From Candidatus Staskawiczbacteria bacterium (GTDB lineage: Bacteria; Patescibacteriota; Minisyncoccia; Minisyncoccales; Staskawiczbacteraceae), in contig CAIYRH010000018.1 in assembly GCA_903928565.1 (NCBI GenBank), forward strand, positions 10,693 to 74,692: a stretch of 64,000 bases of DNA. The letters run 5' to 3'. The position numbers and the translations under genes were made by a program. Shown here piece after piece: positions 40,185 through 59,828 of the stretch. Each line of letters opens with the position of its first letter. Position 1 is the first letter of the stretch. The notes beneath the pieces are model-generated. The model had not been told where the DNA came from. It made no database searches and saw only the letters and a program-made list of their open reading frames with translations.

Positions 40185-40202
40185 GGTTATCACGTGATAA
40201 CC
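40185..40202. promoter_or_regulatory. Palindrome box GGTTATCACGTGATAACC, 8 nt upstream of TTGTGA-N17-TATCAT promoter of tgt
   Basis: Perfect 18-bp palindrome. Confidence 0.6.
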
Positions 40203-40220
40203 TAAGCTTTTTTATTTCAC

Positions 40221-40412
40221 CTAACTTTTTAATAAATATTTTATATCTGTTTTTTTAATTATAAAATTGGGCCCGACTTTTACTGCTTTGATTGCTCCCC
40301 GATTAATTCTTTTCAGTACAGCCACCCGACTAATTTTTAAAAGCTTCGCCAGCTGACTCACGGATAAAAACTCACTTTTTTCTATAATAACATCTTTTAA
40401 ACTGTTGCTCAT
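40221..40412 (-). CDS. Excisionase/MerR-type helix-turn-helix DNA-binding protein (63 aa)
   Basis: LSVSQLAKLLKISRVAVLKRINRGAIKAVKVG matches the excisionase-family HTH; flanked by palindrome boxes. Confidence 0.6.
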   Translation of the reverse strand: MSNSLKDVIIEKSEFLSVSQLAKLLKISRVAVLKRINRGAIKAVKVGPNFIIKKTDIKYLLKS

Positions 40413-40436
40413 ACTACGGCTATTTACTTATATTCT

Positions 40437-40460
40437 TCAGGTTATCACGTGATAACCTGA
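40437..40460. promoter_or_regulatory. Perfect 24-bp palindrome TCAGGTTATCACGTGATAACCTGA upstream of HTH gene
   Basis: Read directly. Confidence 0.65.
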
Positions 40461-40480
40461 GACTTTCAATAAATTACAAA

Positions 40481-40900
40481 TTAGAGGTTTTTACTTAAAT
40501 AGTACCAATCCACCCCATAATAATATTTTGGAAGAACTGCATCTTTTTTATAACCCATTTTCTTATAAAAATGTATGGTTTTGGGCCACGCAGATGAGGT
40601 TTTTACAACCGATTTAACACAATTTTTTTTGATCTTTGCCCAAGCCTCAACGTGACTAAATAACTGGGTACCAACACCGCTCCCCCGCAAACCATCCTTC
40701 ACAAGCAAAGACCGAATTTCTGCAATTCCGCCCCTAATTTCAACTTGAGCATATGCGATAATTTCTTTGCCCGAATATGAGGCAAAATAAAATGTTTTTC
40801 TAGAAGGTAAGAAGTTAAACTTTTTATCATTTATTGCCCATTGTTTGTTCCCAAAACTTTCAGTCGCCGTTTTTTTAACTTCTTTAATTTGAACATTCAT
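40481..40900 (-). CDS. GNAT-family N-acetyltransferase
   Basis: Acetyl-CoA motif RGSGVGTQL; start taken at MNVQIK, since upstream in-frame codons are a translation of the palindrome. Confidence 0.65.
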   Translation of the reverse strand: MNVQIKEVKKTATESFGNKQWAINDKKFNFLPSRKTFYFASYSGKEIIAYAQVEIRGGIAEIRSLLVKDGLRGSGVGTQLFSHVEAWAKIKKNCVKSVVKTSSAWPKTIHFYKKMGYKKDAVLPKYYYGVDWYYLSKNL

Positions 40901-40908
40901 ATTTATTT

Positions 40909-40932
40909 TCAGGTTATCACGTGATAACCTGA
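40909..40932. promoter_or_regulatory. Perfect 24-bp palindrome TCAGGTTATCACGTGATAACCTGA immediately upstream of GNAT gene
   Basis: Read directly. Confidence 0.65.
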
Positions 40933-40957
40933 GCATTTATGTCTTATTGTGTCGAAA

Positions 40958-41428
40958 TTATTTGATAATCACGGGGAGGCCGAGGTTTTTGTTCTTTTCT
41001 GGTAAACCGCTGGGGTTTTCATTGCTGAAGAAGAGCGTGGCAGAGCCCTTGTAGTCCGTGGTGAATGTTAGGGTTGTTTCAAATTGAGTTGGAAATTTTG
41101 TCCAATCTGTTGTTGCCTTTAAAACGCCATCTGCTATTTTTTTACCTTTATTATCGGACAACTGAACTGTGCCAACTTGTCCTTCAAAACCTGCCCAGCC
41201 ACCGCCATTTACAGAACCCGTAATTTTTAATGGCGAAACAACCCAACCGCCGTCTTTAGGAGAATCTATTTTTATGCCCTCTACTGCTTGGTTTTGCGTT
41301 TGTGAATTTTGTTGCGAATTATTTTGTTGCGAAGTTGTGGGCGCTTTTGCCGGCACAAGAAACAAAATTCCTAACAAAATAATAAATATTATACCTAACA
41401 CGGCTAAAAGCCAAATTTCTTTTTTCAC
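40958..41428 (-). CDS. Secreted Gmad2-like Ig-fold domain protein
   Basis: Signal/TM; KIDSPKDGGWVVSPLKITGSVNGGGWAGFEG pattern. Confidence 0.4.
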   Translation of the reverse strand: MKKEIWLLAVLGIIFIILLGILFLVPAKAPTTSQQNNSQQNSQTQNQAVEGIKIDSPKDGGWVVSPLKITGSVNGGGWAGFEGQVGTVQLSDNKGKKIADGVLKATTDWTKFPTQFETTLTFTTDYKGSATLFFSNENPSGLPEKNKNLGLPVIIK

Positions 41429-41594
41429 GGGTCTGCGAGCGAGGCGAGCAGATTTGCTTCGGAAATCAAGCCCAGATATATCTTATACATTGAGGGTTTG
41501 ATTTACGCTGAATACCTTTTTCGAATTAATTGTATATCTTCATTCTACATTTTAGATAGAAAAAATAAACCCCCCTACCCACCGGCAGGCAGGC

Positions 41595-41623
41595 TTGACA
41601 TAGCCCTATAAACAAAGTATAAT
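41595..41623 (+). promoter_or_regulatory. Consensus sigma-70-type promoter TTGACA-N17-TATAAT
   Basis: cTTGACAtagccctataaacaaagTATAATaaat ~65 nt upstream of small zinc-ribbon gene. Confidence 0.55.
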
Positions 41624-41688
41624 AAATATAGTTAGTTAAAAGGTCGTTTTAGTATTTATTAGGCAAATGCCTATAAAAGAAACAAAAA

Positions 41689-41868
41689 ATGTTCGACAGA
41701 AACAATAACAGTGGAGGTTTTGTTAAAAGAGAACCTGTAAAAGGAAACTGGAAATGCTCCGAATGCGGAGTAGAAATCACAGAGCTTCCTTTTGAACCGG
41801 CTCCAGACAGACCAATCTACTGCAGAGAATGCTGGTCTAAAAAGAGACCTCCAAGATTCAGCAGGTAA
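41689..41868 (+). CDS. Small (59 aa) zinc-ribbon protein; C-x2-C...APDRPIYC-x2-C motif identical in pattern to the C-terminal ribbon of the Cys-rich array proteins
   Basis: MFDRNNNSGGFVKREPVKGNWKCSECGVEITELPFEPAPDRPIYCRECWSKKRPPRFSR; terminator-like hairpin at 41890-41915. Confidence 0.5.
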   Translation: MFDRNNNSGGFVKREPVKGNWKCSECGVEITELPFEPAPDRPIYCRECWSKKRPPRFSR

Positions 41869-41965
41869 AATTTCTGAATTTTAGAAATAATCCCCTACTC
41901 GGGGGTTATTTTTTTGCAAAAAATTCTAATAGTGATACAATAAAAAAACAATTTAAAAATAAATT

Positions 41966-42364
41966 ATGGAAATTAATCCTCCCGTAAAAATTAAAGTTTT
42001 AGAAGTGGAAGGCAAGGGACGAGGTGTTGTGGCAACAGAAGATATTAACGAAGGTGAAATTATTGAATACTGCCCTATTGTTTTTATTACTAAAGAAGAA
42101 GCTGAATTTTTTGAAAAAGGAAAAACCGTTTTGAATTTTTATTATATGCAACAACCAGAAATTAACCAAGTTTGCTTAATGCTTGGTTACGGTTGCATTT
42201 ACAACCACAGCCAAACGCCTAACGCGGAAGTAGATTATGACACTGCCAGCCCAAAAGATTTTTTGTATTTTAAGGCCTTAAGAAAAATTTCTGCCGGCGA
42301 AGAAATTGTGTACGACTACCAATTTGATAATAATAAAGAAGAATTTTTACAAGATGCCAAATAA
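41966..42364 (+). CDS. SET-domain protein (putative lysine methyltransferase)
   Basis: GKGRGVVATEDINEGEIIEY, NHSQTPN, GEEIVYDY motifs. Confidence 0.55.
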   Translation: MEINPPVKIKVLEVEGKGRGVVATEDINEGEIIEYCPIVFITKEEAEFFEKGKTVLNFYYMQQPEINQVCLMLGYGCIYNHSQTPNAEVDYDTASPKDFLYFKALRKISAGEEIVYDYQFDNNKEEFLQDAK

Positions 42365-42767
42365 CGAATTTTTAGAAAACTTAAAAAACACATACTGCAG
42401 GCTGAAAGCTTCAAAGATAGAAGGTGTTGGGATTTTTGCAATAAGAAATATTCCTAAAAATACTAACCCATTTTATGGAGTTTCTAAAAGAAAGTGGCAA
42501 AAAATAAAACCAAAAGACTATAAAAATTTTGATAAAGAAATAAAAGCAATGATTGGAGATTTTTTTGCCTTTGATGAAAATGGAGAGTTTTCAATTCCCC
42601 AACATGGACTAAACGGCATGGACATATCATTTTTTCTGAATACATCTAAAAACCCTAATGTGAAAACAATAGATGACGGAACAAATTTTGTTACTACAAG
42701 AAAAATTAAAAAGGGCGAAGAACTTACCGTATTTTATGGAGATTATGACGTAAGATATAAAAAATAA
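42354..42767 (+). CDS. Second SET-domain-like protein (overlaps preceding gene by 11 nt)
   Basis: GVGIFAIRNIPKNTNPF ... KKGEELTVFYGDY. Confidence 0.45.
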   Translation: MPNNEFLENLKNTYCRLKASKIEGVGIFAIRNIPKNTNPFYGVSKRKWQKIKPKDYKNFDKEIKAMIGDFFAFDENGEFSIPQHGLNGMDISFFLNTSKNPNVKTIDDGTNFVTTRKIKKGEELTVFYGDYDVRYKK

Positions 42768-42772
42768 AAAAA

Positions 42773-44005: not shown

Positions 44006-44042
44006 TAAAAATATTTAAAATAATATAATATCATAAAATAAA

Positions 44043-45392: not shown

Positions 45393-45415
45393 ACTTTATT
45401 TTTTAAATAACAAAA

Positions 45416-45440
45416 AAGCCCCGTAGAGCGGGGTTTTTTG
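45416..45440. terminator. Bidirectional rho-independent terminator (A-run, GCCCCG..CGGGG hairpin, T-run)
   Basis: aaaaaagccccgtagagcggggttttttg between convergent genes. Confidence 0.65.
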
Positions 45441-45450
45441 TTGAAGTTTT

Positions 45451-45657
45451 TTAATTTCTGCCTAATTTTGGCCAGACAACAATAAGGTAAATTGCTGACA
45501 AACCAACTAATACATAAACTGTGCTTACTAACCATGCCATTGAACCAAAAAGCATTGTGACTAAATTATAGTCGGGACTGATGGCTACCAATAGCCAGTT
45601 TAACCCTCCAATTATTACTAATACTAACGCAATTGCGTCTAATGTTTTAAATTTCAT
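45451..45657 (-). CDS. DUF378-like small membrane protein
   Basis: GGLNWLLVA ... VYVLVGLSAIYL pattern. Confidence 0.5.
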   Translation of the reverse strand: MKFKTLDAIALVLVIIGGLNWLLVAISPDYNLVTMLFGSMAWLVSTVYVLVGLSAIYLIVVWPKLGRN

Positions 45658-45734
45658 ATTCGATTTTATAAATTAATTCTTAAAATCGACCTTTAATATA
45701 TTATACTACAAAATTGGCAGTCAATAGAAGTGGA

Positions 45735-47681: not shown

Positions 47682-47717
47682 TTATAAAATAAAAGCACCC
47701 TACCGGGTGTTTTTTTG

Positions 47718-49442: not shown

Positions 49443-50521
49443 ATTTTATTTCAGCTTCTATAAATTTTTCTAAGTCGCCGTCTAAAACTCCTTCGGCATC
49501 GCTTGTTTCATAAAGCGTGCGCAAATCTTTTACCATTTTATAAGGGTGCAAAACATAAGACCTAATTTGATTCCCAAACCGCACTGAAATGTTTTCACCT
49601 TTTATTTCTTTAATTTCTTTAACGTGCTGTTCTTCGCGCAACTGATATAATTTTGCCACCAAAATTTTCATTGCCTTATCTTTATTTTTTCCTTGCAGCC
49701 TTTCTTTTTGCGAAGCGACTACAATGCCAGTTGGTATGTGCGTAATTCTAATGGCCGATTCGGTTTTATTTACATATTGGCCACCAGGGCCAGAAGCTTT
49801 AAATGTGTCTATTTTTAAGTCGTCTGGCCTAATTTCTAATTCAATTTCGTTATCTTTAATTTCCGGCAATATATTTACAAGCGCAAAAGAAGTGTGGCGA
49901 AGTTTTTGCGAATTAAATGGCGAAAGTCTTACCAACCTGTGTACGCCTGCTTCTTTTTTTAAAAAACCGTAAGCATAGTTTCCTTTTATTTCTATTATAA
50001 CAGATTTTGTGCCAATTCTTCCTTCGGGGCCACCGCCTTCGCCAAGCGCTTGGTGCAAAATTGCAGTTTTATAACCTTTTTTCTCACAATAGCGTTCGTA
50101 CATTCGTAAAAGCATTGTTGACCAATCTTGCGAATCTTGCCCACCGGCCCCAGAATATATTTCTAAAATTGCATTGCTTTTGTCGTATTTGCCTGACAAA
50201 TAAGTCTTAAATTCTTGCTTTTCTATCTTTACATTCAAATTTTCCAAAGAAAATTTGTCCTGAGCGGAGTCGAAGGATTGCAACACCTTATAATCGGCAA
50301 TATCATTTTTTATTTCTTCCAATGCTGATATTTCATTTTTTATTTCTGAGATTTCTTGTTGAACTTCCGTTGCATGTTCGTTGTCGTTCCAGAAATTTGG
50401 CAGTAATGATTCTTCTTCTAACTCTTTTAATTTCTTTTCTTTTCCGGCTACATCAAAGACGGTCTCCCAAATTCTGGAGCCTTGTTTCTAACTCTTCAAT
50501 TTGTGGAGTTGCATCTACCAT
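49429..50521 (-). CDS. prfB: Peptide chain release factor 2 with programmed +1 frameshift
   Basis: ATG 50519-50521, 22 codons MVDATPQIEELETRLQNLGDRL then CTT TGA T shifty site (rc of 50453-50459), continuing in +1 frame into the 297-aa ORF; GGQ-type RF2 body. Confidence 0.85.
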
Positions 50522-50567
50522 ATTGTTTTTATTTTATCATAATAATTGAAACAAAAAAAGACCGCAA
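50313..50567. repeat. Direct repeat copy 1 (~255 bp, prfB promoter plus first ~75 codons), ~92% identical to 51604-51858
   Basis: Aligned by eye. Confidence 0.7.
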
Positions 50568-50605: not shown

Positions 50606-51268
50606 CTAAGACCTGGCAATGGAGAGCATGAGTTCTATGATGAACCGCTGAGCGCGCCCATAATTGAAAGTTTTTGCCTTGATAGCTTTTTCTAGGCGAC
50701 GAGCAGCACGCGTGACTTTGAGGTTGTGCTCAAGTTTATGCATCTCGCCCATAAAGAAACGACACCAAGCTAGACTCATAAACCTGGATAAACCACAGGG
50801 CATCTCCGCATTTAGCGACACTGTTTCGTCAATTGGCAAGCATGTCAATTTTGCGCTGAAAAAATTCATCGTCTTGAAGTAATCAGCACTGCCCACCTCA
50901 ATATCGCTATTCTCTCTGGGTATTTCATCTCCACTTATGAGAATTTGCCTGTTAGCCCAATCATAACAATGATATCCAACGCGCATGTTAGAGGGCAAAA
51001 CGGCATGATCGTAAGTGACCGCGATGCGCGAGATATAAAGACGTTCGTCGGTGGGCGTCCAATAAGAATGGATTACGGTGCCAGACGACCCCACGTCTTC
51101 AATTGCTTTTGTCCAGTTTTTTTCTTCCATCGACACAACAAGAGCGTCTTTAAGCCTGGTGCATCGCACATCTGGCCGGCCCGACCTGTTATACTCTTCC
51201 GCAGTAAAAGCACTAAATTGATCGCTGAGCGTAATAGCCTTGTAAGTGAAGCTCAATGTTTTTTTCAT
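50606..51268 (-). CDS. Hypothetical protein on a high-GC island; paralog of 27170-27769
   Basis: GGAGGA RBS before MKKTLSF; terminator hairpin 50553-50580; GC ~50% versus ~35% flanks. Confidence 0.5.
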   Translation of the reverse strand: MKKTLSFTYKAITLSDQFSAFTAEEYNRSGRPDVRCTRLKDALVVSMEEKNWTKAIEDVGSSGTVIHSYWTPTDERLYISRIAVTYDHAVLPSNMRVGYHCYDWANRQILISGDEIPRENSDIEVGSADYFKTMNFFSAKLTCLPIDETVSLNAEMPCGLSRFMSLAWCRFFMGEMHKLEHNLKVTRAARRLEKAIKAKTFNYGRAQRFIIELMLSIARS

Positions 51269-51394: not shown

Positions 51395-51418
51395 TCAGGT
51401 TACCCTACGGTAACCTGA
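51395..51418. promoter_or_regulatory. Variant palindrome TCAGGTTACCCTACGGTAACCTGA followed by TTGACA promoter element of the 233-aa gene
   Basis: Same 8-bp outer arms as the consensus 24-mer, different centre. Confidence 0.5.
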
Positions 51419-51529
51419 GCCGAACTATTCCACTTTTTCGTGGAATGGCTGTGCCCCACCACCTTAATTTATTAATTTTTCATATAGGACAATTCTATAG
51501 AATTGTCCTATTGCGTTTTGTCGCACTTA

Positions 51530-51812
51530 TTATGCTACTTCGTTTTGATAACAACTTTCGCAATAAACTAATTCCGGACGGTCGGGAGAATAAGAAGTTT
51601 TGATTTCTTCCAATGCTGATATTTCATTTTTTATTTCTGAAATTTCTTGTTGGACTTCGGTAGCATGTTCGTTATCATTCCAAAAGTTAGGCAACACAGA
51701 TTCTTCTTCTAATTCTTTTAATTTCTTTTCTTTGCCAACTACATCAAAGACGGTCTCCCAAATTCTGGAGCCTTACTTCTAACTCTTCAATTTGCGGAGT
51801 TATATCTACCAT
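51530..51812 (-). pseudogene. Chimeric relic: duplicated prfB 5' end (start, frameshift site, ~55 +1-frame codons) fused in-frame to the last 23 codons of a Cys-rich-family gene (KTSYSPDRPELVYCESCYQNEVA)
   Basis: Start 51810-51812; stops TAA TAA at 51527-51532; followed by relic family intergenic palindromes (51420-51530). Confidence 0.6.
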
Positions 51813-51858
51813 ATTGTTTTTATTTTATCATAATAATTGAAACAAAAAAAGACCGCAA
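51604..51858. repeat. Direct repeat copy 2 of prfB 5' region
   Basis: See 50313-50567. Confidence 0.7.
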
Positions 51859-51883: not shown

Positions 51884-52309
51884 CTATCCGGCCATTATGC
51901 CAGTCATAAAATTTTCTACCTCCAAAGCGATTTCTAGGCTCGTCAGACCGTCTTTCAGAGTCAGCACTAACGGATCTACCGTTTTTTCCATTGCTTCGAA
52001 TGCAAAACTATCGACACCAAAGATGACAATAGGCAAACATGGAATCTCCTCGCGCAATCTATGGTAAAGCGCTATGCCCGTTTCGCAACCACCCGCAACC
52101 AGATGTTCCCTAAACACTCCCCCGTATGGCAAAAAGTTAGAAGTGACTAACAGCTCTGACCGTTGGTCTTCTGGCTTATCAAATTGTTCCAAAACCGCCG
52201 AAGCATAGTCACAAACCACAACTTTATGCCCAGCTTTTTGCAATCTTGCAATGAGTATTTCATTAAAAAATCTACTATCTGTAGCGAATGCAATTCTGAA
52301 CGTTTTCAT
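51884..52309 (-). CDS. Hypothetical protein with degenerate CheY-like receiver fold (phospho-acceptor Asp not evident); moderately GC-rich
   Basis: AAGAAGGGAA RBS; pattern MKTFRIAFATDS...LLVTSNFLPYGG...IPCLPIVIFG resembles a receiver-domain scaffold. Confidence 0.3.
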   Translation of the reverse strand: MKTFRIAFATDSRFFNEILIARLQKAGHKVVVCDYASAVLEQFDKPEDQRSELLVTSNFLPYGGVFREHLVAGGCETGIALYHRLREEIPCLPIVIFGVDSFAFEAMEKTVDPLVLTLKDGLTSLEIALEVENFMTGIMAG

Positions 52310-52410: not shown

Positions 52411-52434
52411 TCAGGTTATCACGTGATAACCTGA
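52411..52434. promoter_or_regulatory. Perfect 24-bp palindrome TCAGGTTATCACGTGATAACCTGA, 8 nt upstream of TTGACA-N16-TAGTAT promoter of the CheY-like gene
   Basis: Read directly; abuts the stop codon of array member 1. Confidence 0.65.
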
Positions 52435-52435
52435 G

Positions 52436-54013
52436 CTAGGATATTTCGGTTTGATAGCAGGCCTCGCAGTAAACTATTTCGGGGCGGTCTGGGGCGTAGG
52501 AAGTTTTGATTTCTTTGGCGCATTTGGCACATTGGCGGTTCCACAGTTTAAATGGAGTGCGCATAGACAATCTTTTGCTGTGACGGCACATAAAACAATT
52601 AACGGGTTGTGGCAAACCCATTTCATTATAAAAATCTTGCTCGCGATCTATAATTTTAAAATAATTACCGCACTGCTGACATTTAAAAACATTCTTTTCA
52701 TCGCCGGCGTATTCTACCTTAGTTTTCTCTCTCCAAAGAAACCCCTTTTGCGCTGCTGTTTCTGGCGATAAAGGGAAATAGTCTTGGGCAAGCGTTTCGT
52801 TGTAGGCAAAGGGCGATAATTCTGCCGGAAAAAATTGGCCGTACTCGCCCGTTTTTTTCATATGTTCAATAATTTTATCTCTTAATGCAAAATACTCTTC
52901 TTTAGAATATTGTTTGTTAAATATACAATGTTTTTTCTTGCGCAAACCTACGCAACCAAACAAATCAGACGAATTGTAACAATAATAAGAATATTGAACA
53001 TCGTTGGAATACCAAACACGCTTGCTGTAAGAAATGTTCGTGCCCAATATGCTCATTGAGTCATTTATTAATTCACCATAGCCACTGCCAAAACAATCGT
53101 AAGCATCTTTAATTTTGAGCGATTCTTGAACCCATTTTAAATTTTCGCCATCGTTAATGCCAAAACAATTTTTACAATTTTTAGAATTATTTATATTTTC
53201 GCCAAAACAATCTACTGCATTTTTGAATGTGTGTAATTGACGTGGCTTTGAATTTACAAATTTTATGGCTTCATCTTGTGAAATGCTTTGTATCTTCTCA
53301 AAATATTCTTTTTTAGTATATGGTTTATTAAAAATGTGGAATTTTTTACTACGTAAACCCACACAAGCAAAACAATTTGAACAATCGCGGCAATCGTATA
53401 AATATGATGATTCTCTGCATTCAATTGCAAACCGGCTAAACCGAACATTATAACATTTTTGGCTGTCTATTAATTCGTAACATTTTTCGCATGGCCCACC
53501 AACCCAAAAACAATCCGCAGAATCCTTAAGATCGTTTGACTGAGAAGTGTACAGAACATTCTCGTCGTAGTCTGAGACAAAAGTCATATAACAATTTTTA
53601 CAACTTAAAAGCGAATGACAATAGTTGCAATTTGACGAATTAGTGTTGGCCACATGAGGAAATGGCACCGCCTGAATAAGTTGGGCAAATTGCTCAAAAA
53701 ATGGAACAGAAAAATTGAAATCTTTTCCATAACTCATAACATCCCAATTGTCGGACCACCAATAATCTTGGTCGTAAACTACAACGTTGGCTTGAGGCGG
53801 GAAAATTGATATTAATTCCTCAGAGTGCCCTGGCGCCTGGCACTTTCTTCTAAAAAGATTGTGCTCGTTGCGCCACATAAACCTTCTACCAATTCTGCAT
53901 TCTGGACAAAATGTTGGAGCGGGCACTTTCATTTTTTCGTAGAACGCAAAATCATCAGGCTCTATTACAAAGTCTTTTTTGCAGTTTTGACAATTTTTTG
54001 TTTGACTATCCAT
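52436..54013 (-). CDS. Cys-rich double-zinc-ribbon protein, array member 1 (525 aa from MDSQTK)
   Basis: Conserved N-terminus MDSQTKxCQNCKxxFxIEPDDFAFYEKMKVPAPTFCPECR, internal CxxCxxCxGLRxKxYxIFNKxY(T/S)KEEY signature twice, C-terminus C..C..APDRPEIVYCEACYQTE. Confidence 0.7.
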   Translation of the reverse strand: MDSQTKNCQNCKKDFVIEPDDFAFYEKMKVPAPTFCPECRIGRRFMWRNEHNLFRRKCQAPGHSEELISIFPPQANVVVYDQDYWWSDNWDVMSYGKDFNFSVPFFEQFAQLIQAVPFPHVANTNSSNCNYCHSLLSCKNCYMTFVSDYDENVLYTSQSNDLKDSADCFWVGGPCEKCYELIDSQKCYNVRFSRFAIECRESSYLYDCRDCSNCFACVGLRSKKFHIFNKPYTKKEYFEKIQSISQDEAIKFVNSKPRQLHTFKNAVDCFGENINNSKNCKNCFGINDGENLKWVQESLKIKDAYDCFGSGYGELINDSMSILGTNISYSKRVWYSNDVQYSYYCYNSSDLFGCVGLRKKKHCIFNKQYSKEEYFALRDKIIEHMKKTGEYGQFFPAELSPFAYNETLAQDYFPLSPETAAQKGFLWREKTKVEYAGDEKNVFKCQQCGNYFKIIDREQDFYNEMGLPQPVNCFMCRHSKRLSMRTPFKLWNRQCAKCAKEIKTSYAPDRPEIVYCEACYQTEIS

Positions 54014-54087
54014 AATTTTATTATAGTATGTTTTTTCACGTGGCGTGAAAAACATACTACTGTCACGTGTACTGTCACGTGTATTGT

Positions 54088-54110
54088 CAGGTTGTCGCAT
54101 GATAACCTGG
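54088..54110. promoter_or_regulatory. Variant palindrome CAGGTTGTCGCATGATAACCTGG upstream of member 1
   Basis: Followed on coding strand by ACACGTGACAGT x2 and the stem-loop GTATGTTTTTCACGCCACGTGAAAAAACATAC. Confidence 0.55.
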
Positions 54111-54218
54111 TATTGGCTATTCCACTTTTTAGTGGAATGGCCGTGCCCCACCACTTTAATTTATATTTCTCACATACAACTATTCCATGGAATTGTTTAA
54201 TGGTGGGATTAGCAATGT

Positions 54219-55886
54219 CTAGGCGACTTCATTTTGATAGCAAACCTCGCAGTAAACTATTTCTGGGCGGTTGGGGGCGTAGCTGGTTTCAAATTCATTG
54301 ATGCAACCTGGTTTCATGCATTTTCTGTGCCAAAGTTTGGAAGGCCCGCGAAGCTCAAATCTTTTTTTGAGTCTACAAAAAAAACATTTTACAGGTATAG
54401 GAATTTTCCATTTACGATAAAAAGCCAACTCGTCAGGTACTATTTTATAATTTCTTTTGCAAACGTCACACTCTAATATTTCATTTAAAATTGAATCATC
54501 AACATTATTTATATTATCGGGGATATTTTTTAACGTAGTTTTACCGAGGGTTTTTTGAATATTTTCTTGCCAATTTAGCTCTTTGCTTAAAGCTTCTTCT
54601 TTTGTTAAAGGAAAATCTATCATCGCCATAGATTCGTTATAAGCAAACGGTGAATACTGCATTGGGAAAAACTCGCCCCACTCTCTTCCCTTTTTCATGT
54701 GTTCAATAATTTTTTCTTTTAAGGCAAAATATTCTTCTTTTGTGTATTGTTTGTTAAAAATTGAATATTCGCCATGTTTTAAAGCAACGCTGCCAAAACA
54801 ATTATTTGAAGATTGGCAAAAATCCGAATATGCCACATCCATGCATTTCCAAGCATGAATACAGTACAATGCCCTATTAGAATTATCTGGCGTTATGCTT
54901 TCATAGCATTATGAAAGTTCACCGCCAGAACACAAGTCGTAACTGTCTTTTTGAGTATCACCATTTTCTAAATATTTAGAATCTTCTGACCTGCGACAAT
55001 GAAAAACGTTTTTTGAATTTTTACTGTTAATTATATTATTCCCCGTGCAGTTTAGGCAATTTCTGGAAGAAACAAACCGCCTTGGCTGAGTAATTAAAAA
55101 ATTGTTAAATTCAAGTTGAGCCCTTTCGCAACCGTTTCGGCTTCCTATTTTATAAGCATCGATAATTTTTTCGTATTCTTCTTTTGTATATTGTTTATTT
55201 AAAATATAGTATTGCTTGTTGCGTAAATTTACAGACATAAAACAATTTTCACATCCAACACATTCAACGCAATAAGCGCAATTCATCAGACTGGAAGAGC
55301 CATAAACATTTCTGCATCCAAAACATTTGTCGCTATACATTACCTCATACAAACCTTCGCCCGTGCTAAAAATTCCCATTGAATCAACGGTGTCTTTTGT
55401 TTCGGCGCAATAACACGTGTACATACAATTTTCAACTTTCCATGAAACCATTGCCATATAACAATTTTTTCCCAAAGCGAAATTTTGGGTATATTCACAA
55501 TTTTCGCTTCCAATATTATTATCGTTGACTAAAGCAAGCGTGGGAACTTTCAATCTAAATTCCCTAAATTGATCAAAAAACGGTCTGTTAAAATCAAAAT
55601 CTTGTGCATATTGTTTGGGGTCCCATGAGTCTCCCCACCAACATTTATTACAATAAATGACTTGTGGGCTTTCTGGAGAATAAATTGAAATTATATTTCT
55701 TTTACATAAATCGCAATTACGATTATAAAAAACAAAATCGTTTCTCCATGACAATCGTCTCTGTCTTCTGCACTCTGCGCACCAGGTTGGGGGTGGGACT
55801 TTCATTTTTTCGTAAAACGCAAAATCATCGGGCTCAATTACGAACTCGCTGTTACAGTTTTGACAAACTTTTGTTTGACTATCCAT
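54219..55886 (-). pseudogene. Cys-rich array member 2, interrupted by a single in-frame TAA (54906-54908) lying within a small hairpin; otherwise a continuous ~555-codon reading frame
   Basis: Track ORFs 54909-55940 and 54219-54869 are in the same frame; N-half has MDSQTK start, C-half has the family C-terminus. Confidence 0.6.
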
Positions 55887-55948
55887 AATTTTATTATAGT
55901 ATGTTTTTTCACGTGGCGTGAAAAAACATACTACTGTCACGTGTACTG

Positions 55949-55972
55949 TCAGGTTGTCACGTGATAACCTGA
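55949..55972. promoter_or_regulatory. Palindrome TCAGGTTGTCACGTGATAACCTGA upstream of member 2
   Basis: One mismatch from the perfect 24-mer. Confidence 0.6.
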
Positions 55973-55978
55973 TGAATT

Positions 55979-57682
55979 TTAAACAACTTCTTGCTGGTAA
56001 CAGCCTTCACAATAAACTATTTCGGGACGATTTGGTGCATAGGAAGTTTGGATTGCAACATTGCATTTTGCGCAGTTTCTAGGCCACAGTTTTGGCGGAT
56101 TGATACGTGCCAAACGTTGCATGTGCCGACAATCTGAACAAAAATGAGGAACTGGGAATTCGAAACGGCGTAAAAGTGCAAGTTCGGCTGTTGTTATTTT
56201 AAAAGCTTTTCCACACAATTCGCAACCCAAAACTTCTTTTAATATTGAATCTTCCACATTTTTTATATTGTCGGAGATTTTATTGGCAGGTAGTGTAATA
56301 ACGTGATTACTTATTGCGGGGTCGCGCCACTTCCAGCCATTTTTTAAAACCTCTTCTTTTGAAAGTGGATAATACTGAATTGCTTGAGATTCGTTATATG
56401 CGAAAGGGCCTAAGTCATAAGGTAAAAAATCACCATAACGCCAAATTCTGCCAACTGAATCAATGTAGGGGTTTTTATTCATGTCTTCTATTATTTGCGC
56501 TCGCAAAGCTGTGTATTCTTCTGCCGAATATTGTTTGTTTAAAATTCTATATCGTTTCTTTTTTTGATTTATACAACCAAAAGAATATTGGCACGAAACA
56601 TTATACATTCCATATTCCACCTCCATAGTACCCTGATGCCATGCACCCAAAGTAAACCTAACCATGTCGGCCCCCTCGCCGACAGTAATTGAGTCTACAA
56701 CACGTTGAACGCCATTGCCCCATTCAGTGAGATCATAGATATCTTTAGCTGGAGGTATTGTTATAAATTGGCAGTATTTAGCATCTTCCAACTCGCGAGC
56801 CTGAAAACAATTGAGTGCATTCTTTGCACGATAAACATAATCTCCAGAAACATTTATACACTGTGCATCTTTGTGCATATATTTGTTTGGATATTGCAGC
56901 CAAAAATCATCAACAATTTTTTTGATCTTTAACAATTCGCTGTTACTGGCAAGATTATATTCTTTAATTTTTTCTAAATATTCTTCTTTGGTATATGGTT
57001 TATTAAAAATATAATATTTTTTATTGCGCAAATTAATGCAACCGAAACAATTGTCACAACCGATACAACTTTTTAAAAAATAAGATTCTGTGCACTTTGT
57101 GCAACTTTCGGAAAAAAATAACTTATAACCTTTGCTGTCTATGGCTTGATACATTAATTCTGACTCGCCCACCATATAGCAATCCATAGAATCTTTAACG
57201 CTTACCACAATGGTTGAATAATGAACATTTTCGCAAAAATCAGAATTAAAAACTAAGTAACAGTTTTTGGCACTTCCTGCATGATTAACATAATCACTAT
57301 TTATAAGTGTTGCGTGGTCATTTATTAGAGCCATATGCGGAGTTTTTTTCTGCAATTCAAGCATTTGCTCAAAAAATGGCACCGCTGGGTTGTATTCTAA
57401 AAAATGTTCGCCGTCGTCCCATTTGTCAGACCACCAACAGGCGGAACAATACATAATTAGTTTTGATTCCGGAGAAAAAATTGTCACAACATTTTCGCCA
57501 CATAAGTCACATTTTCTTTTATACAGAACTCTTTCGCTTCTACACATAATTCTACGCTGAAATCTGCAGGAAGGGCAAAATGTTGGAGCGGGAACTTTCA
57601 TTTTTTCGTAGAACGCAAAATCGTCGGGCTCAATTACGAACTCGTTTTTGCAGTTCTGACAAACTTTTGTTTGACTATCCAT
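55979..57682 (-). CDS. Cys-rich double-zinc-ribbon protein, array member 3 (567 aa)
   Basis: Same architecture; ends PNRPEIVYCEGCYQQEVV. Confidence 0.7.
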   Translation of the reverse strand: MDSQTKVCQNCKNEFVIEPDDFAFYEKMKVPAPTFCPSCRFQRRIMCRSERVLYKRKCDLCGENVVTIFSPESKLIMYCSACWWSDKWDDGEHFLEYNPAVPFFEQMLELQKKTPHMALINDHATLINSDYVNHAGSAKNCYLVFNSDFCENVHYSTIVVSVKDSMDCYMVGESELMYQAIDSKGYKLFFSESCTKCTESYFLKSCIGCDNCFGCINLRNKKYYIFNKPYTKEEYLEKIKEYNLASNSELLKIKKIVDDFWLQYPNKYMHKDAQCINVSGDYVYRAKNALNCFQARELEDAKYCQFITIPPAKDIYDLTEWGNGVQRVVDSITVGEGADMVRFTLGAWHQGTMEVEYGMYNVSCQYSFGCINQKKKRYRILNKQYSAEEYTALRAQIIEDMNKNPYIDSVGRIWRYGDFLPYDLGPFAYNESQAIQYYPLSKEEVLKNGWKWRDPAISNHVITLPANKISDNIKNVEDSILKEVLGCELCGKAFKITTAELALLRRFEFPVPHFCSDCRHMQRLARINPPKLWPRNCAKCNVAIQTSYAPNRPEIVYCEGCYQQEVV

Positions 57683-57744
57683 AATTTTATTTTAGTATGT
57701 TTTTTCACGTGGCGTGAAAAAATATACTACAGTCACGTGTACTG

Positions 57745-57768
57745 TCAGGTTATCACGTGATAACCTGG
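57745..57768. promoter_or_regulatory. Palindrome TCAGGTTATCACGTGATAACCTGG upstream of member 3
   Basis: Read directly. Confidence 0.6.
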
Positions 57769-57878
57769 AATTTGGTATTCCACTTTTTCGTGGAATGGCA
57801 GTACCCCTTCACTTTAATTTATTAAATTTTCACATTGAACAATTCTATGGAATTGTTTAATGATGGGATTGGCAATAT

Positions 57879-59534
57879 CTAGGCGACCTCGTTCTGGTAA
57901 CAGGTCTCGCAATAAACTATTTCCGGGCGGTCTGGGGCGTAGGAAGTTTCAAATTCGTTTTGACAACCTGCCTTCATGCATTTTCTGTGCCAAAGTTTAA
58001 AAGGCAGTCTCATTTCTCGGCGGGCACCTAGACGGCATTGAGGACACTCGCGTGGTAACGGCAATGAAAATCGTTTAAGATATTTTAATTCTTCTATAAC
58101 AATTTTATAGTTTCGTTTACAATATATGCATGAAAAGACTTCTTTAATAAAATCATCGTCGACATCTTTAATATTATCTGGAATATTTTCTGTTAAAACT
58201 GTCTCCTGGCTTGTGATTAAAGGCACATCCTCTTGCCAATGATAACCTTGTCTTAATGCTTCCTCTTTTGTAAGTGGATAATAATCGTTTGCGGCAGTCT
58301 CGTTATAACCAAAAGTGCTAAAATCTTTATCCATAAATAAAGCAAGCTCTTTTTTTTCTTCAATTTGTTTTTTTATGGTTTCATATTCGGCTTTTGAATA
58401 TTGTTTATTTAAAATACAATATTCTTTTCGCTTTAATCCAATGCAAGCAATGCAATTATTACATGAAATTAGGCTATCACACCAATCACAGAAGCTGGAA
58501 TTAAAAATATTGAAAGAATTTTTTATCATAGAACCTCCCTTAATCACTGCCGAACTGAAAATATTTTCCGTTGGTTGGGTGCCTACTGCATAGCTCCATT
58601 GAGCACTATTTGAATGGAGAATGCTGGCAACATTGCGCACATCTTGATTATCCGCACCATCAAAACACCAAAAATTTCTATCACAATTTTCGAGATAATT
58701 GCCAACACAGCCGTTAGATTTTAAGAAAAAAGCAAAGCGGTGGATAGCAACCTTCTTCAGCTCTTTATATTCGGAAAGCGAATTAAGATGAGTAACATAA
58801 CTGCCATTAAGAATTTTTTTACATTCTTTGAGATACTCTTCGCGCCCAACTTCTTTATTTCTAACGCAATAAGATTTATTCCGCAAATTATAACAAAAAA
58901 GACAGTTACTACAACCACGCAAGTCATAGCTAAAATAGCAATCTGAACAATCAGAAGAATCTTGAATATACGCAGAGTGATAAGACTTTATCACGTCTAC
59001 TGAATTGAGAATTAATTCGCTATCGGTTATTTTATGACAATCCATGCAATCTTTGTTGCCAACCATCCACATCGAATATAGGATATTCTCTGAATTCGAA
59101 ATTAAAAAAGAAAAATAGCAATTTTTAGAATCACGCACGTTGCTACCGTAAGTACAATTTGTAGAATTTAAAATAATGACAGCCTCCCGAGGAACTCTTT
59201 TTTGTAATTCAATAACCTGGTCAACAATTGAGCGACCAGAATCATAATTATTTCCATAAGATAGTCCATCCCATTGATCACTCCACCAACAGTCGTGACA
59301 AAAAATCGTATACGGTGATTTAGAATGATAAAGTGACATTGTTTTCTGTCCACAATGAGCACATTTACCCCAATATACCACTTTTTCGTTACGTAATACT
59401 TCTATTTGTGCCATGCCGCACTCATAACAGAATTCTAAAGGATTCACTTTCATTTTTTCATAAAACTCAAAATCATCGGGCTCAATTATGAAGTCCTTCT
59501 TGCAATTTTGACAAACTTTTGTTTGACTATCCAT
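57879..59534 (-). CDS. Cys-rich double-zinc-ribbon protein, array member 4 (551 aa)
   Basis: Same architecture; ends PDRPEIVYCETCYQNEVA. Confidence 0.7.
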   Translation of the reverse strand: MDSQTKVCQNCKKDFIIEPDDFEFYEKMKVNPLEFCYECGMAQIEVLRNEKVVYWGKCAHCGQKTMSLYHSKSPYTIFCHDCWWSDQWDGLSYGNNYDSGRSIVDQVIELQKRVPREAVIILNSTNCTYGSNVRDSKNCYFSFLISNSENILYSMWMVGNKDCMDCHKITDSELILNSVDVIKSYHSAYIQDSSDCSDCYFSYDLRGCSNCLFCYNLRNKSYCVRNKEVGREEYLKECKKILNGSYVTHLNSLSEYKELKKVAIHRFAFFLKSNGCVGNYLENCDRNFWCFDGADNQDVRNVASILHSNSAQWSYAVGTQPTENIFSSAVIKGGSMIKNSFNIFNSSFCDWCDSLISCNNCIACIGLKRKEYCILNKQYSKAEYETIKKQIEEKKELALFMDKDFSTFGYNETAANDYYPLTKEEALRQGYHWQEDVPLITSQETVLTENIPDNIKDVDDDFIKEVFSCIYCKRNYKIVIEELKYLKRFSLPLPRECPQCRLGARREMRLPFKLWHRKCMKAGCQNEFETSYAPDRPEIVYCETCYQNEVA

Positions 59535-59616
59535 AATTTTATTTTAGTATGTTTTTTCACGTGGCGTGAAAAAATACACTACTGTCACGTGTAATATCAC
59601 GTGTACTTTCAGGGGG

Positions 59617-59790
59617 TTATTTTTTCCAATCTATGACGCTGATTGTTCGCCCTTTTAAGGCAACAACCACCTTTTGGTGCTCTTTCCAGCCAAGTTTTTG
59701 CACAATTTCAATTGGAAGAGTAATGCCTAGGGTTTTTCCCTTGCCTGTTTTAGTTAATTTCCTAATATTTTTTTCACTTAGATTTCTCAT
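59617..59790 (-). CDS. AbrB/MazE/SpoVT-type swapped-hairpin DNA-binding protein (57 aa), missing from the ORF track
   Basis: MRNLSEKNIRKLTKTGKGKTLGITLPIEIVQKLGWKEHQKVVVALKGRTISVIDWKK; variant palindrome directly upstream. Confidence 0.5.
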   Translation of the reverse strand: MRNLSEKNIRKLTKTGKGKTLGITLPIEIVQKLGWKEHQKVVVALKGRTISVIDWKK

Positions 59791-59802
59791 GTTAAGTGTA
59801 CT

Positions 59803-59828
59803 GTCAAGTTAACCACGGTTAACCTGAC
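59803..59828. promoter_or_regulatory. Variant palindrome GTCAAGTTAACCACGGTTAACCTGAC upstream of AbrB-like gene
   Basis: Inverted arms GTTAACC/GGTTAAC; preceded by the actgtca context seen at other copies. Confidence 0.45.

What the first reader, a model, noticed from the sequence alone, without database searches (positions are those of the whole stretch)
40185..59828. Regulon defined by a perfect 20-24-bp palindrome TCAGGTTATCACGTGATAACCTGA, in nine copies placed just upstream of -35 elements
The palindrome, or close variants that keep the outer arms, occurs at 40185, 40437, 40909, 51395, 52411, 54088, 55949, 57745 and 59803. In each case it lies 5-10 nt upstream of a TTGACA-like -35 box with a TAGTAT/TATCAT -10 box. 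The downstream genes are tgt, a 63-aa excisionase-type HTH gene, a GNAT gene, two high-GC cargo genes (233-aa and CheY-like), every member of the Cys-rich array, and an AbrB-like gene. The HTH gene is flanked by copies on both sides, which makes it the prime candidate binder; the AbrB-like protein is the alternative. The link to tgt is odd, since the array proteins are unusually rich in the Q-decoded residues Tyr, Asn, Asp and His; that connection is speculation.
Basis: partly seen in the sequence, partly recalled or inferred. Interest (0 to 1): 0.8.

Follow-up and report, generated by a model that had tools for sequence, protein, structure and literature searches.

The report
Operator palindrome of a small repressor
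The repeated palindrome is real and is most likely the DNA docking site, built into the promoter, of the tiny 63-residue DNA-binding protein encoded between two of its copies; this protein-and-site pair recurs across a group of uncultivated bacteria, so it is a sound but fairly ordinary gene switch.

Summary
The palindrome exists at all nine coordinates. Only three copies are perfect 24-mers, two have one mismatch, one keeps a perfect 18-bp core and three are variants. None is expected by chance.

The window comes from a Candidatus Staskawiczbacteria (Patescibacteria/CPR) genome. In all five lineages reached through the 63-aa HTH_17 protein, its gene has GGTTATCA-NN-TGATAACC just upstream and a second copy just downstream. 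Distant homologues (38–52% identity) keep the same 16 arm bases in front of their own genes. These homologues are Doc-toxin partners or N-terminal fusions to type I HsdM methyltransferases.

At HTH genes a TTGACA box lies 4–6 nt upstream of the palindrome. The right arm plus a conserved T (TGATAACCT) reads as an extended −10. Start codons peak 7–11 nt downstream, as for leaderless transcripts. I infer an autorepressor whose operator overlaps its core promoter.

tgt and the Cys-rich genes recur as neighbours of the site elsewhere. The two foreign cargo genes may only sit next to an older site. The AbrB-like alternative has no support.

This is a new member of a known kind, of moderate interest.

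The parts
40182..40205 (.). Palindrome copy 1 (perfect 18-bp core 40185-40202), between the HTH stop codon and tgt
   Evidence: It lies 73 nt before the tgt ATG. The base after the core is A rather than T, so the -10-like TAACCT is not complete here.
40148..40176 (-). Candidate sigma-70-type promoter of tgt (TTGTGA-17-TATCAT), 8 nt downstream of copy 1
   Evidence: This is a consensus match only and is not statistically special.
40437..40460 (.). Palindrome copy 2 (perfect 24-mer) in the HTH gene's own promoter region
   Evidence: TTGAAA lies 6 nt upstream, the right arm reads TGATAACCT, and the ATG is 27 nt after the core.
40909..40932 (.). Palindrome copy 3 (perfect 24-mer), 11 nt before the GNAT start codon
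51395..51418 (.). Variant palindrome TCAGGTTACC-GTAG-GGTAACCTGA, with a symmetric T>C / A>G change
   Evidence: The same GGTTACC variant sits between the Cys-rich gene and prfB in relative L144.
52411..52434 (.). Palindrome copy 5 (perfect 24-mer), 20 nt upstream of TTGACA-16-TAGTAT of the 141-aa cargo gene
54087..54110 (.). Degenerate copy upstream of the 525-aa array gene
55949..55972 (.). Copy with one mismatch, upstream of the split array gene
57745..57768 (.). Copy with one mismatch, upstream of the 567-aa array gene; its end overlaps a CTGACA -35-like box
59804..59827 (.). Variant palindrome TCAGGTTAACC-GT-GGTTAACTTGA, 16 nt before the AbrB-like gene
40221..40412 (-). 63-aa HTH_17 / excisionase-family winged-helix protein, the proposed binder and autoregulator
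   Evidence: PF12728 31.6 bits (cutoff 27) and TIGR01764 34.1 bits (cutoff 28.8). AlphaFold2 model with pLDDT 84.6. Best fold matches are BldC, Pukovnik Xis, RdfS and RacA. 76 homologue clusters share 59-100% identity.
38963..40111 (-). tgt (tRNA-guanine transglycosylase), a recurrent neighbour of the palindrome
   Evidence: TIGR00430 433.8 bits. The palindrome lies upstream of tgt in L003, L015, L017 and L022 as well.
40481..40900 (-). GNAT acetyltransferase (139 aa)
   Evidence: GNAT genes follow the palindrome in L065 and L129 too. An ASCH gene takes this position in L015.
50606..51268 (-). 220-aa cargo gene (GC 0.45, GGAGG ribosome site); membership in the regulon is doubtful
51884..52309 (-).
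52436..54013 (-). Cys-rich array gene (525 aa from MDSQTK)
54219..55886 (-). Cys-rich array gene split into two ORFs (325 aa + 216 aa)
55979..57682 (-). Cys-rich array gene (567 aa), member of a Parcubacteria-wide family
57879..59534 (-). Cys-rich array gene (551 aa); no main palindrome directly upstream
59617..59790 (-). 57-aa AbrB/MazE-like gene behind the 59804 variant
   Evidence: PF04014 22.7 bits, below its cutoff of 24.7. No homologue in related loci.

Best explanation
The palindrome GGTTATCA-NN-TGATAACC is the operator of the 63-aa winged-helix HTH_17 protein encoded at 40221-40412.

**Binding (inferred).** Two monomers bind the two 8-bp half-sites. The half-site centres are 10 bp apart, so both monomers sit on the same face of the DNA.

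**At the protein's own gene (inferred from the anatomy).** The operator lies inside the core promoter. A TTGACA-like -35 sits 4-6 nt upstream. The right arm plus a conserved following T (TGATAACCT) serves as an extended -10. Bound protein should therefore block RNA polymerase, giving negative autoregulation. In many relatives the start codon follows 8-10 nt later, which fits a leaderless transcript.

**In this genome.** The operator has spread to at least eight further intergenic sites. The one protein is therefore positioned to co-control tgt, a GNAT gene, the AbrB-like gene and the promoters of the Cys-rich paralogues. Control of the two foreign cargo genes is possible but weakly supported.

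**Status of each step.**
- Shown: the site, its conservation, and its fixed association with the HTH gene.
- Inferred: binding, the sign of regulation, and the leaderless start.
- Unknown: the input signal. The protein has no sensor domain.
For: 1. **Test not seeded by the motif.** HTH homologues were found by protein search. Their contigs represent five lineages: the window type, P0027, P0050, P0036 and P0072. In all five, a palindrome with at most 2 mismatches in 18 lies 8-27 nt before the HTH start, and a second copy lies just after the gene.
2. **Motif-seeded scans.**
   - Of the 15 stretches with the exact 18-mer in 596 Gb of genomes, 13 are in Patescibacteria MAGs (at least five labelled Staskawiczbacteria, the rest Saccharibacteria or 'Patescibacteria group'). 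The other two fall inside ORFs of high-GC genomes and look like chance.
   - Among low-GC loci from both scans, the largest family of genes directly behind the site is the HTH family itself, with 23 loci.
3. **Sequence, not structure, is conserved.** In 19 non-redundant HTH-upstream sites, the 16 arm positions are invariant or nearly so (at least 18 of 19 at each). Only the two central bases vary. This holds although the proteins share as little as 38% identity. Their recognition-helix motif ISRxAxLKxI keeps S28, R29, L33 and K34 invariant.
4. **Reuse in self-regulating modules.** The same operator precedes HTH-Doc toxin-antitoxin pairs (Doc TIGR01550 43.8 bits) and HTH-HsdM fusions (N6_Mtase 353 bits). 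Both are module types where autorepression by an N-terminal or antitoxin HTH is the established pattern.
5. **Promoter geometry.**
   - TTGACn lies 4-6 nt upstream in 16 of 19 HTH sites.
   - T follows the 18-mer in 18 of 19 sites, while the mirror position is not conserved.
   - Start codons peak 7-11 nt after the site: 4.4 ORFs per nt, against 0.3-1.2 in the other distance bins.
   - Native genes of the window lack Shine-Dalgarno sites.
6. **Divergent arrangement.** In L004 the site lies between the HTH gene and an oppositely oriented gene. That fits an operator, not a terminator.
7. **Fold.** The model is a MerR/Xis-type winged helix. Its best matches are the DNA-binding proteins BldC, Xis, RdfS and RacA.
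Against: - No binding data exist; everything is comparative.
- The three variant sites (GGTTACC, GGTTAAC) change both arms symmetrically. That is what hairpin selection or palindrome-correcting repair would give. A single dimer's specificity would not obviously produce it.
- Outside the HTH gene the position relative to putative promoters is inconsistent in this window: the gap from the core to the -35 box is 8 nt at tgt and 20 nt at the cargo promoters, and the two overlap at the array promoters. One sign of regulation therefore cannot be read off.
- Array orthologues in other lineages have no such palindrome. The Staskawiczbacteria relative L144 has none upstream of its single Cys-rich gene, only a GGTTACC variant downstream of it.
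- A cargo homologue elsewhere lacks the palindrome.
- The protein has no sensor domain, so what the regulon responds to is open.
- The extended -10 reading assumes E. coli-like promoter rules in an uncultivated phylum.
Confidence: 0.7

Rival explanations
1. The palindrome is mainly a nucleic-acid hairpin: a terminator, an RNA processing site, or a REP/MITE-like dispersed intergenic repeat. It would be selected for structure rather than for binding the HTH protein.
For: - It folds strongly as RNA (-14.7 kcal/mol, z = -4.8).
- The variants at 51395 and 59804, and in L144, L001, L009 and L011, keep the symmetry through paired changes.
- It is often accompanied by a small hairpin, ATTCYAN-loop-NTRGAAT, which clearly covaries.
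- Metagenome contigs often break at the site, as they do at repeats.
Against: - The arms show no covariation in 19 diverged lineages, and only the would-be loop varies. A structural element would drift.
- No T-run follows on the coding strand. The terminator scan calls the site only on the non-coding strand.
- At HTH genes a -35 box lies upstream of it and the ATG 8-10 nt downstream, so most of it would not be transcribed with that gene.
- It occurs between divergent genes in L004.
- It is specifically tied to one protein family across three different gene architectures.
Confidence: 0.1
2. The palindrome is only a promoter: a bidirectional extended -10 element read by RNA polymerase alone. The HTH protein would bind elsewhere or not at all.
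For: - The right arm plus T reads TGnTAACCT.
- The T is conserved on one side only.
- Start codons peak 7-11 nt downstream.
- A -35 box lies at the correct spacing.
Against: - A -10 element does not need the mirror-image left arm, yet that arm is equally invariant.
- This reading does not explain why the element is tied to one HTH family, including antitoxin and methyltransferase-fusion forms.
- It does not explain the second copy placed directly after the HTH gene.
- Most genes of the window have no such element.
Confidence: 0.08
3. The palindromes are recombination sites. The excisionase-family HTH would be a directionality factor that helps an unidentified recombinase insert or excise 'palindrome + gene' cassettes, in an integron-like manner.
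For: - The protein matches the excisionase family model (TIGR01764).
- The gene between Gmad2 and HTH differs among genomes: GNAT here, ASCH in L015, none in L003. Each is preceded by a copy.
- The two cargo genes sit between the same 5' flank (86% identity over 65 nt) and 3' flank (91% over 261 nt).
- The locus has grown from one gene in L144 to about eight here, next to two tRNA genes.
Against: - No integrase or recombinase is conserved near the HTH. Its neighbours are ychF, rluD or tgt, and one serine recombinase is seen only in L023.
- The cargo homologue in L154 is a self-contained promoter-gene-terminator unit with no palindrome.
- The cargo junction is explained by a tandem duplication through EIK microhomology with prfB.
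- No HTH homologue occurs in the viral contigs that carry the motif.
- The operator-in-own-promoter geometry is not an att-site feature.
Confidence: 0.05
4. The 57-aa AbrB/MazE-like protein (59617-59790) is the binder.
For: It is a small DNA-binding fold encoded behind a variant copy and in front of the array.
Against: - It has no homologue in any related locus, although the palindrome is conserved there.
- Its Pfam score is below the curated cutoff (22.7 against 24.7).
- Its own upstream site is a divergent variant.
Confidence: 0.02

Closest known systems
BldC of Streptomyces (PDB 6AMA, 6AMK)
   Same: - Top structural match (TM 0.7-0.86).
- A stand-alone MerR-like winged helix of about 60-70 residues, with no effector or dimerisation domain, that controls many promoters.
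   Different: - 12-15% sequence identity.
- From my own knowledge of the BldC structures, BldC binds head-to-tail on direct repeats. Here the site is a strict palindrome with 10-bp half-site spacing inside the protein's own promoter.
Excisionases / recombination directionality factors (Pukovnik Xis 4J2N, RdfS 8DGL, TIGR01764)
   Same: - Same sequence family: TIGR01764 at 34.1 bits and PF12728 at 31.6 bits, both above cutoff.
- Weak PDB sequence hit to Pukovnik Gp37 (E = 0.089).
- Same fold.
   Different: - No integrase and no att context.
- Stable chromosomal synteny (ychF-HTH-rluD or HTH-tgt) across species.
- The site is a palindrome overlapping a promoter.
Autoregulating HTH modules of restriction-modification systems (C proteins; N-terminal HTH of methyltransferases such as M.SsoII)
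   Same: - Same logic: a palindromic operator in the module's own promoter, bound by its own HTH.
- Homologues of this HTH are fused to type I HsdM and have the same operator upstream.
- Weak hits to the MADS system HTH, mad1.
   Different: - From my own knowledge, C proteins are Xre-type HTHs with different C-boxes.
- The window's protein is free-standing, with no methyltransferase next to it.
Type II antitoxins that autorepress their operon (the Phd-Doc paradigm)
   Same: Homologues of 84-91 aa with a C-terminal extension precede Doc toxins and carry the same operator in their promoter.
   Different: - The window's protein lacks the extension and has no Doc neighbour.
- From my own knowledge, Phd itself has a different fold from this HTH_17 domain.
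MerR-family regulators and RacA
   Same: - Winged-helix fold.
- Operator lying between the -35 and -10 boxes.
- From my own knowledge, RacA binds a short palindrome.
   Different: - No coiled-coil or effector domain.
- The spacer is a normal 17-18 bp (19 in the window) rather than the long MerR spacer.
- The -10 lies inside the operator.

Membership tests
HTH_17 (PF12728) / excisionase-family DNA-binding domain (TIGR01764) | Score above the curated cutoff of the family model | tested here: met
   PF12728 31.6 bits against cutoff 27. TIGR01764 34.1 bits against cutoff 28.8.
HTH_17 (PF12728) / excisionase-family DNA-binding domain (TIGR01764) | Winged-helix fold of the MerR/Xis type | tested here: met
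   AlphaFold2 model with pLDDT 84.6 and strand-helix-helix-hairpin order. Best Foldseek matches are BldC, Xis, RdfS and RacA, with TM up to 0.86 but weak E-values because the protein is small.
Functional excisionase (recombination directionality factor) | Encoded with an integrase on an integrative element bounded by att sites | tested here: not met
   No recombinase lies among the genes from 38.9 to 60.5 kb. The conserved neighbours in relatives are ychF, rluD and tgt. A serine recombinase is nearby only in L023.
MerR-family transcription factor | C-terminal coiled-coil dimerisation helix and effector-binding domain | tested here: not met
   The protein has 63 residues. The model ends with one short helix after the wing.
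Type II toxin-antitoxin antitoxin | Adjacent cognate toxin gene, and a toxin-neutralising extension on the antitoxin | tested here: not met
   The window neighbours are GNAT and tgt, and the protein has no extension. Distant homologues do meet this feature: they are 84-91 aa and are followed by Doc (TIGR01550 43.8 bits, cutoff 38.65).
Autoregulated transcription factor with a palindromic operator | Operator conserved in the factor's own promoter across lineages | tested here: met
   Five of five lineages reached through the protein. In 19 non-redundant sites the arms are invariant or nearly so.
Autoregulated transcription factor with a palindromic operator | Direct, sequence-specific binding of the protein to the site | not testable with these tools
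   This needs EMSA, footprinting or DAP-seq.
Intrinsic terminator | GC-rich hairpin followed by a T-run on the transcribed strand | tested here: not met
   The tails on the gene strand are TGAAGAAT, TGAAAATA and AAAAAAAA. The scan calls the site only on the opposite strand.
Rfam RNA families | Match at gathering score | tested here: not met
   Only three tRNAs are found in 38-64 kb.

The most novel reading that the evidence does not exclude
The 18-bp palindrome is a self-contained, portable control unit. It would be at once the -10 element of a leaderless promoter and the operator of a sensor-less, antitoxin-derived HTH. CPR bacteria would reuse this unit for toxin-antitoxin pairs, type I methyltransferases and chromosomal genes.

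In this lineage it would tie tRNA/RNA-modification genes (tgt, plus GNAT or ASCH at the same position) to the Cys-rich paralogues. Those genes are enriched in Q-decoded NAU codons. Supply of queuosine-modified tRNA and demand for it would then be co-regulated.
Probability: 0.15. Interest if true: 0.7.

Novelty: new member of a known kind. Interest (0 to 1): 0.42.

Why it matters
Almost nothing is known about transcriptional control in Patescibacteria/CPR, because the organisms are uncultivated. This finding offers a protein-operator pair that can be tested directly with a 63-residue protein and a 24-mer oligonucleotide. It also offers a concrete promoter model for these genomes: a -35 box, an operator-embedded extended -10, and leaderless starts. 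The same DNA-binding module serves toxin-antitoxin pairs, type I methyltransferases and housekeeping genes.

The finding also gives a first regulatory handle on a roughly 565-residue Cys-rich protein family. That family is present in thousands of Parcubacteria and has no known function. If the link between tgt and NAU-rich targets were real, it would be a rare case of a tRNA-modification enzyme co-regulated with the genes most dependent on it.

Tried and rejected
- **Split prfB.** I first thought prfB was split by an insertion. It is intact at 50521-49429. The upstream piece is a 261-nt duplicate fused to a Cys-rich tail.
- **Integron-like or att-site reading.** Rejected as the main explanation. 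No recombinase is conserved nearby, and the cargo homologue in L154 has no palindrome.
- **Terminator reading.** Rejected because no T-run follows on the gene strand.
- **AbrB-like binder.** Rejected because the protein is absent from all related loci.
- **Phage origin.** The eight viral contigs with the motif have no HTH homologue and look like chance hits.
- **TIGR-Tas link.** A 2026 preprint on Staskawiczbacteria TIGR-Tas systems (10.64898/2026.09.09.750476) describes stems that flank spacer pairs, not an uninterrupted palindrome. I found no link.
- **Literature searches.** Searches for the half-site sequences returned only unrelated titles. A search on HTH_17 antitoxins with Doc returned six papers that do not look relevant from title and abstract. 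A search on leaderless translation in Patescibacteria found nothing.
- **Family searches.** Pfam, NCBIfam and PADLOC give nothing for the two cargo proteins or for the 100-aa partner of the HTH gene.
- **Chance hits in the metagenome scan.** Many of the 120 metagenome hits to the 16 specified bases are chance matches in high-GC or gut contigs. I set these aside.

Full report

The 24-mer TCAGGTTATCACGTGATAACCTGA occurs perfectly at 40437, 40909 and 52411, and with one mismatch at 55949 and 57745. At 40182 it has three outer mismatches around a perfect 18-bp core. None is expected in 100 shuffles.

A looser search for GGTTATC-N4-GATAACC adds 51398 and 54090. Reading the sequence adds 59804-59827. 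Two of these three are symmetric variants:
- 51395: GGTTACC-GTAG-GGTAACC.
- 59804: GGTTAACC-GT-GGTTAACT.

The 54087 copy is degenerate. No further copy lies in the first 40 kb. All neighbouring genes are on the minus strand.

The distance from the 18-mer to the start codon is as follows:

| Gene | Gap (nt) |
|---|---|
| GNAT | 11 |
| AbrB-like | 16 |
| HTH | 27 |
| two array genes | 65 |
| tgt | 73 |
| third array gene | 76 |
| 141-aa cargo | 104 |
| 220-aa cargo | 129 |

The 551-aa array gene has no copy of its own. The AbrB-like gene is in between.

**2. What organism and what genes?**

The window has about 37% GC. It carries atpD, prfB, ftsEX, nrdAB and tgt. The exact 18-mer and the closest protein homologues are in Candidatus Staskawiczbacteria MAGs, which belong to the Patescibacteria/CPR.

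The HTH protein passes the curated cutoffs of PF12728 and TIGR01764. Its AlphaFold2 model (pLDDT 84.6) is a winged helix. The best structural matches are BldC, mycobacteriophage Pukovnik Xis, RdfS and RacA.

**3. Comparative test of the binder hypothesis**

*Seeded by the protein.* A protein search found 76 HTH homologue clusters (59-100% identity in the full alignment), named Staskawiczbacteria or Patescibacteria wherever a source gives a name. Contigs encoding five different homologues were fetched without using the motif. In every one, a palindrome with at most two mismatches lies 8-27 nt before the HTH start, and another lies directly after the gene. Two synteny types occur: ychF-HTH-100aa-rluD and HTH-tgt.

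*Seeded by the motif.* The genome scan found the exact 18-mer in 15 stretches. Thirteen are in Patescibacteria MAGs; at least five carry the Staskawiczbacteria label, and the rest are labelled Saccharibacteria or 'Patescibacteria group'. The other two fall inside ORFs of high-GC genomes and look like chance.

The metagenome scan with GGTTATCANNTGATAACC gave 120 loci, many of them chance hits. I then looked at the genes directly behind the site in low-GC loci from both scans:
- the HTH family itself, 23 loci;
- a 100-aa protein of unknown function that follows the HTH gene, 8 loci;
- tgt, 5 loci;
- single or few cases of GNAT, ASCH, Nudix, HAD, DUF218, an SDH-type protease, a tRNA-binding domain protein and xseA.

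*Distant homologues.* HTH homologues of only 38-52% identity keep the same operator in front of their own gene. They occur in two other architectures:
- 84-91-aa proteins followed by a Doc toxin (TIGR01550 43.8 bits, above cutoff);
- N-terminal fusions to type I HsdM methyltransferases of about 600 aa (N6_Mtase 353 bits, HsdM_N 95 bits, PADLOC MTase_I).

*Conservation pattern.* In 19 non-redundant HTH-upstream sites, the 16 arm positions are invariant or nearly so (at least 18 of 19 at each), and only the two central bases vary. The recognition-helix motif ISRxAxLKxI is conserved across all three architectures.

An element selected only as a hairpin would show compensatory drift in its stem. 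The small companion hairpin ATTCYAN-loop-NTRGAAT next to several palindromes does exactly that. The main palindrome does not. This contrast is the main argument for sequence-specific protein recognition.

**4. How it most likely works**

At HTH genes a TTGACn box lies 4-6 nt upstream of the 18-mer in 16 of 19 cases. That puts the right arm at the -10 position with a 17-18-bp spacer. TGATAACCT then reads as TGn + TAACCT, which keeps the T, A and final T that matter most in a -10 hexamer. This last point rests on established sigma-70 promoter knowledge, not on a test here.

The T that completes the hexamer is present in 18 of 19 sites. Its mirror position on the other side is not conserved. So the T serves the promoter, not the symmetric binder.

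Start codons behind the site peak sharply at 7-11 nt. There are 22 non-redundant ORFs in that bin, or 4.4 per nt, against 0.3-1.2 per nt in the other distance bins. This fits transcripts that start at or next to the ATG. Native genes of the window have no Shine-Dalgarno sequence, so leaderless or unstructured A-rich leaders are plausible here.

A dimer on this operator would cover the spacer and the -10. I therefore infer negative autoregulation. The half-site centres are 10 bp apart, which is the usual arrangement for a dimer binding one face of the helix.

At the other window sites the palindrome lies upstream of, or overlaps, separate candidate promoters. The sign and strength of control there cannot be read from the sequence.

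**5. Which genes belong to the regulon?**

*Well supported by recurrence.*
- The HTH gene itself.
- tgt, which follows the palindrome in L003, L015, L017 and L022.
- The gene slot between Gmad2 and HTH. It holds GNAT here, ASCH in L015 and nothing in L003.

*Supported once.* A Cys-rich gene starts 18 nt after the palindrome in L009.

*Specific to this lineage.* A palindrome in front of each array paralogue is not general.
- Relative L144 has a single Cys-rich gene between two tRNA genes and prfB. It has no palindrome upstream, only a GGTTACC variant downstream.
- Arrays in other Parcubacteria are tight operons without the motif.

*Doubtful.* The two cargo genes have higher GC and a GGAGG ribosome-binding site. 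They share a 5' flank (86% identity over 65 nt) and a 3' flank (91% over 261 nt, a duplicated prfB 5' end). The 220-aa protein has only ten relatives among 1.84 billion representatives. One relative, in L154, has the same 5'UTR motif and its own promoter but no palindrome. The cargo units therefore look self-contained. They probably landed next to the palindrome that originally stood between the Cys-rich gene and prfB.

**6. Rivals**

- *Hairpin, terminator or dispersed repeat.* The palindrome folds well, and three variants keep symmetry through paired changes. However, the canonical arms do not covary, no T-run follows on the gene strand, and the element is tied to one protein family.
- *Promoter only.* This explains the conserved T and the fixed distance to the ATG. 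It does not explain the invariant left arm or the HTH association.
- *Recombination site with the excisionase-like HTH as directionality factor.* This is attractive because of the variable gene slot and the growth of the locus. However, no recombinase is conserved nearby, and the cargo homologue lacks the site.
- *AbrB-like binder.* It has no homologue anywhere else.

The symmetric variants remain unexplained. They could be weaker sites, sites of an unseen paralogue, or products of palindrome-correcting template switching.

**7. The tgt / Q-codon speculation**

Array genes have more NAY codons than 13 other genes of the window (20.7% against 15.7%, p = 5e-7). They also prefer the U-ending codon in those boxes (NAC/NAY 0.29 against 0.47, p = 5e-9). 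The Phe and Ser control boxes show no such shift: Phe TTC 0.17 against 0.16, Ser AGC 0.56 against 0.61.

The sample is small and the causal link is untested.

**8. Comparison with known systems and verdict**

The protein is a member of the HTH_17/excisionase domain family (tested and met). It fails the defining context of three related classes:
- functional excisionases, because there is no integrase or att site;
- MerR regulators, because there is no coiled coil or effector domain;
- antitoxins, because this copy has no toxin neighbour.

In mechanism it most resembles autorepressing antitoxins and restriction-modification control modules, and its homologues actually serve in both. In form it most resembles BldC.

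I found no description of this operator in the searchable literature. It is a new member of a known kind: a small autoregulated repressor with a palindromic operator that overlaps its core promoter. The evidence is unusually clean comparative data from an uncultivated phylum.

My interest score is moderate (0.42). My confidence is 0.7 that the HTH binds the palindrome and autoregulates. It is lower for the sign of regulation at the other sites and for full regulon membership.

Noticed in passing
window 54025-54058, 55898-55932, 57694-57728, 59546-59580: A second palindrome of about 34 nt, AGTATGTTTTTTCACGCCACGTGAAAAAACATACT, lies about 12 nt before the ATG of all four array genes. This includes the gene that lacks the main palindrome. 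Relative L144 has an equally placed 34-nt palindrome of different sequence, GATGAGTGTTTTGCCACGTGGCAAAACACTCATC. The arms therefore covary around a conserved CCACGTG core. It may be a 5'UTR hairpin or a second operator.
   Followed up: partly
window 54062-54085, 55936-55947, 57732-57743, 59584-59607: Direct repeats GTACACGTGACA, in one to two copies, lie between the main palindrome and the second one. Seventeen of the 21 CACGTG hexamers in the 64-kb window lie in these control regions. This hints at another CACGTG-reading factor or a methylation motif.
   Followed up: no
window 51427-51448, 54119-54140, 57777-57798; also L007, L011, L013, L052, L118: A small hairpin, ATTCCAC-N5/6-GTGGAAT, lies 8-12 nt from several palindromes. 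Across genomes the stem covaries (CCAC/GTGG, CTAC/GTAG, CCAA/TTGG), so it is selected as a structure. Its role is unknown.
   Followed up: partly
window 51530-51858 and 50307-50567: A 261-nt copy (91% identity) of the terminator, promoter and 5' end of prfB, including the CTTTGA frameshift site, lies upstream of the intact prfB. It is fused in frame to a Cys-rich C-terminal tail through an EIK microhomology. This looks like a tandem duplication in which the enclosed cargo gene differs between the two copies.
   Followed up: yes
window 50606-51268; L154 5001-5609: The 220-aa cargo protein is close to an orphan, with ten hits among 1.84 billion representatives. It and its homologue in L154 share a 5'UTR motif, GGCTTTTCGGTGTGCC, and a GGAGG or GGGGG ribosome site. 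Both have GC of 0.45-0.49 in genomes of 0.37 GC.
   Followed up: partly
window, upstream of atpD, ftsE, ftsX, nrdA, nrdB and others: Native genes have A/T-rich upstream regions without Shine-Dalgarno sequences. Only the two cargo genes have one.
   Followed up: partly
L145, L156, L157 (relatives of window 55979-57682): The roughly 565-aa Cys-rich family has more than 6400 clusters across Parcubacteria. In other lineages it forms tight operonic arrays of 3-5 or more paralogues. These sit next to VirD4/TraG-like coupling ATPases, some of which (L145, L157) carry the same zf_Tbcl_2 zinc-finger tail. In L145 an ArsR-type HTH_5 gene directly precedes the array.
   Followed up: partly
window 54219-55886: One array member is split into two ORFs of 325 aa and 216 aa. 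It is probably a pseudogene or a sequencing frameshift.
   Followed up: no
window 37900-37919: Three tandem TTCGAA palindromes with a 7-nt period lie about 20 nt upstream of nrdB.
   Followed up: no
L001 3199, L009 153, L011 4074 and 5942: A second palindrome type, GGTTAAC(A)...(T)GTTAACC, with a total length of 17-19 bp, often stands 10-20 nt from the canonical GGTTATC type in other Staskawiczbacteria. The window's 59804 site is of this type.
   Followed up: partly
L018 3139-3444, L020 10236-10538, L056 562-861, L094 690-980: A conserved 100-aa protein (MDFxIKN...YPRFH...) with no family match follows the HTH gene in many genomes. It has its own palindrome upstream. It is absent from the window.
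   Followed up: partly
window 41689-41868: A 59-aa ORF carries a CxxC...DRPIYCRECW motif that resembles the C-terminal tail of the array proteins.
   Followed up: no
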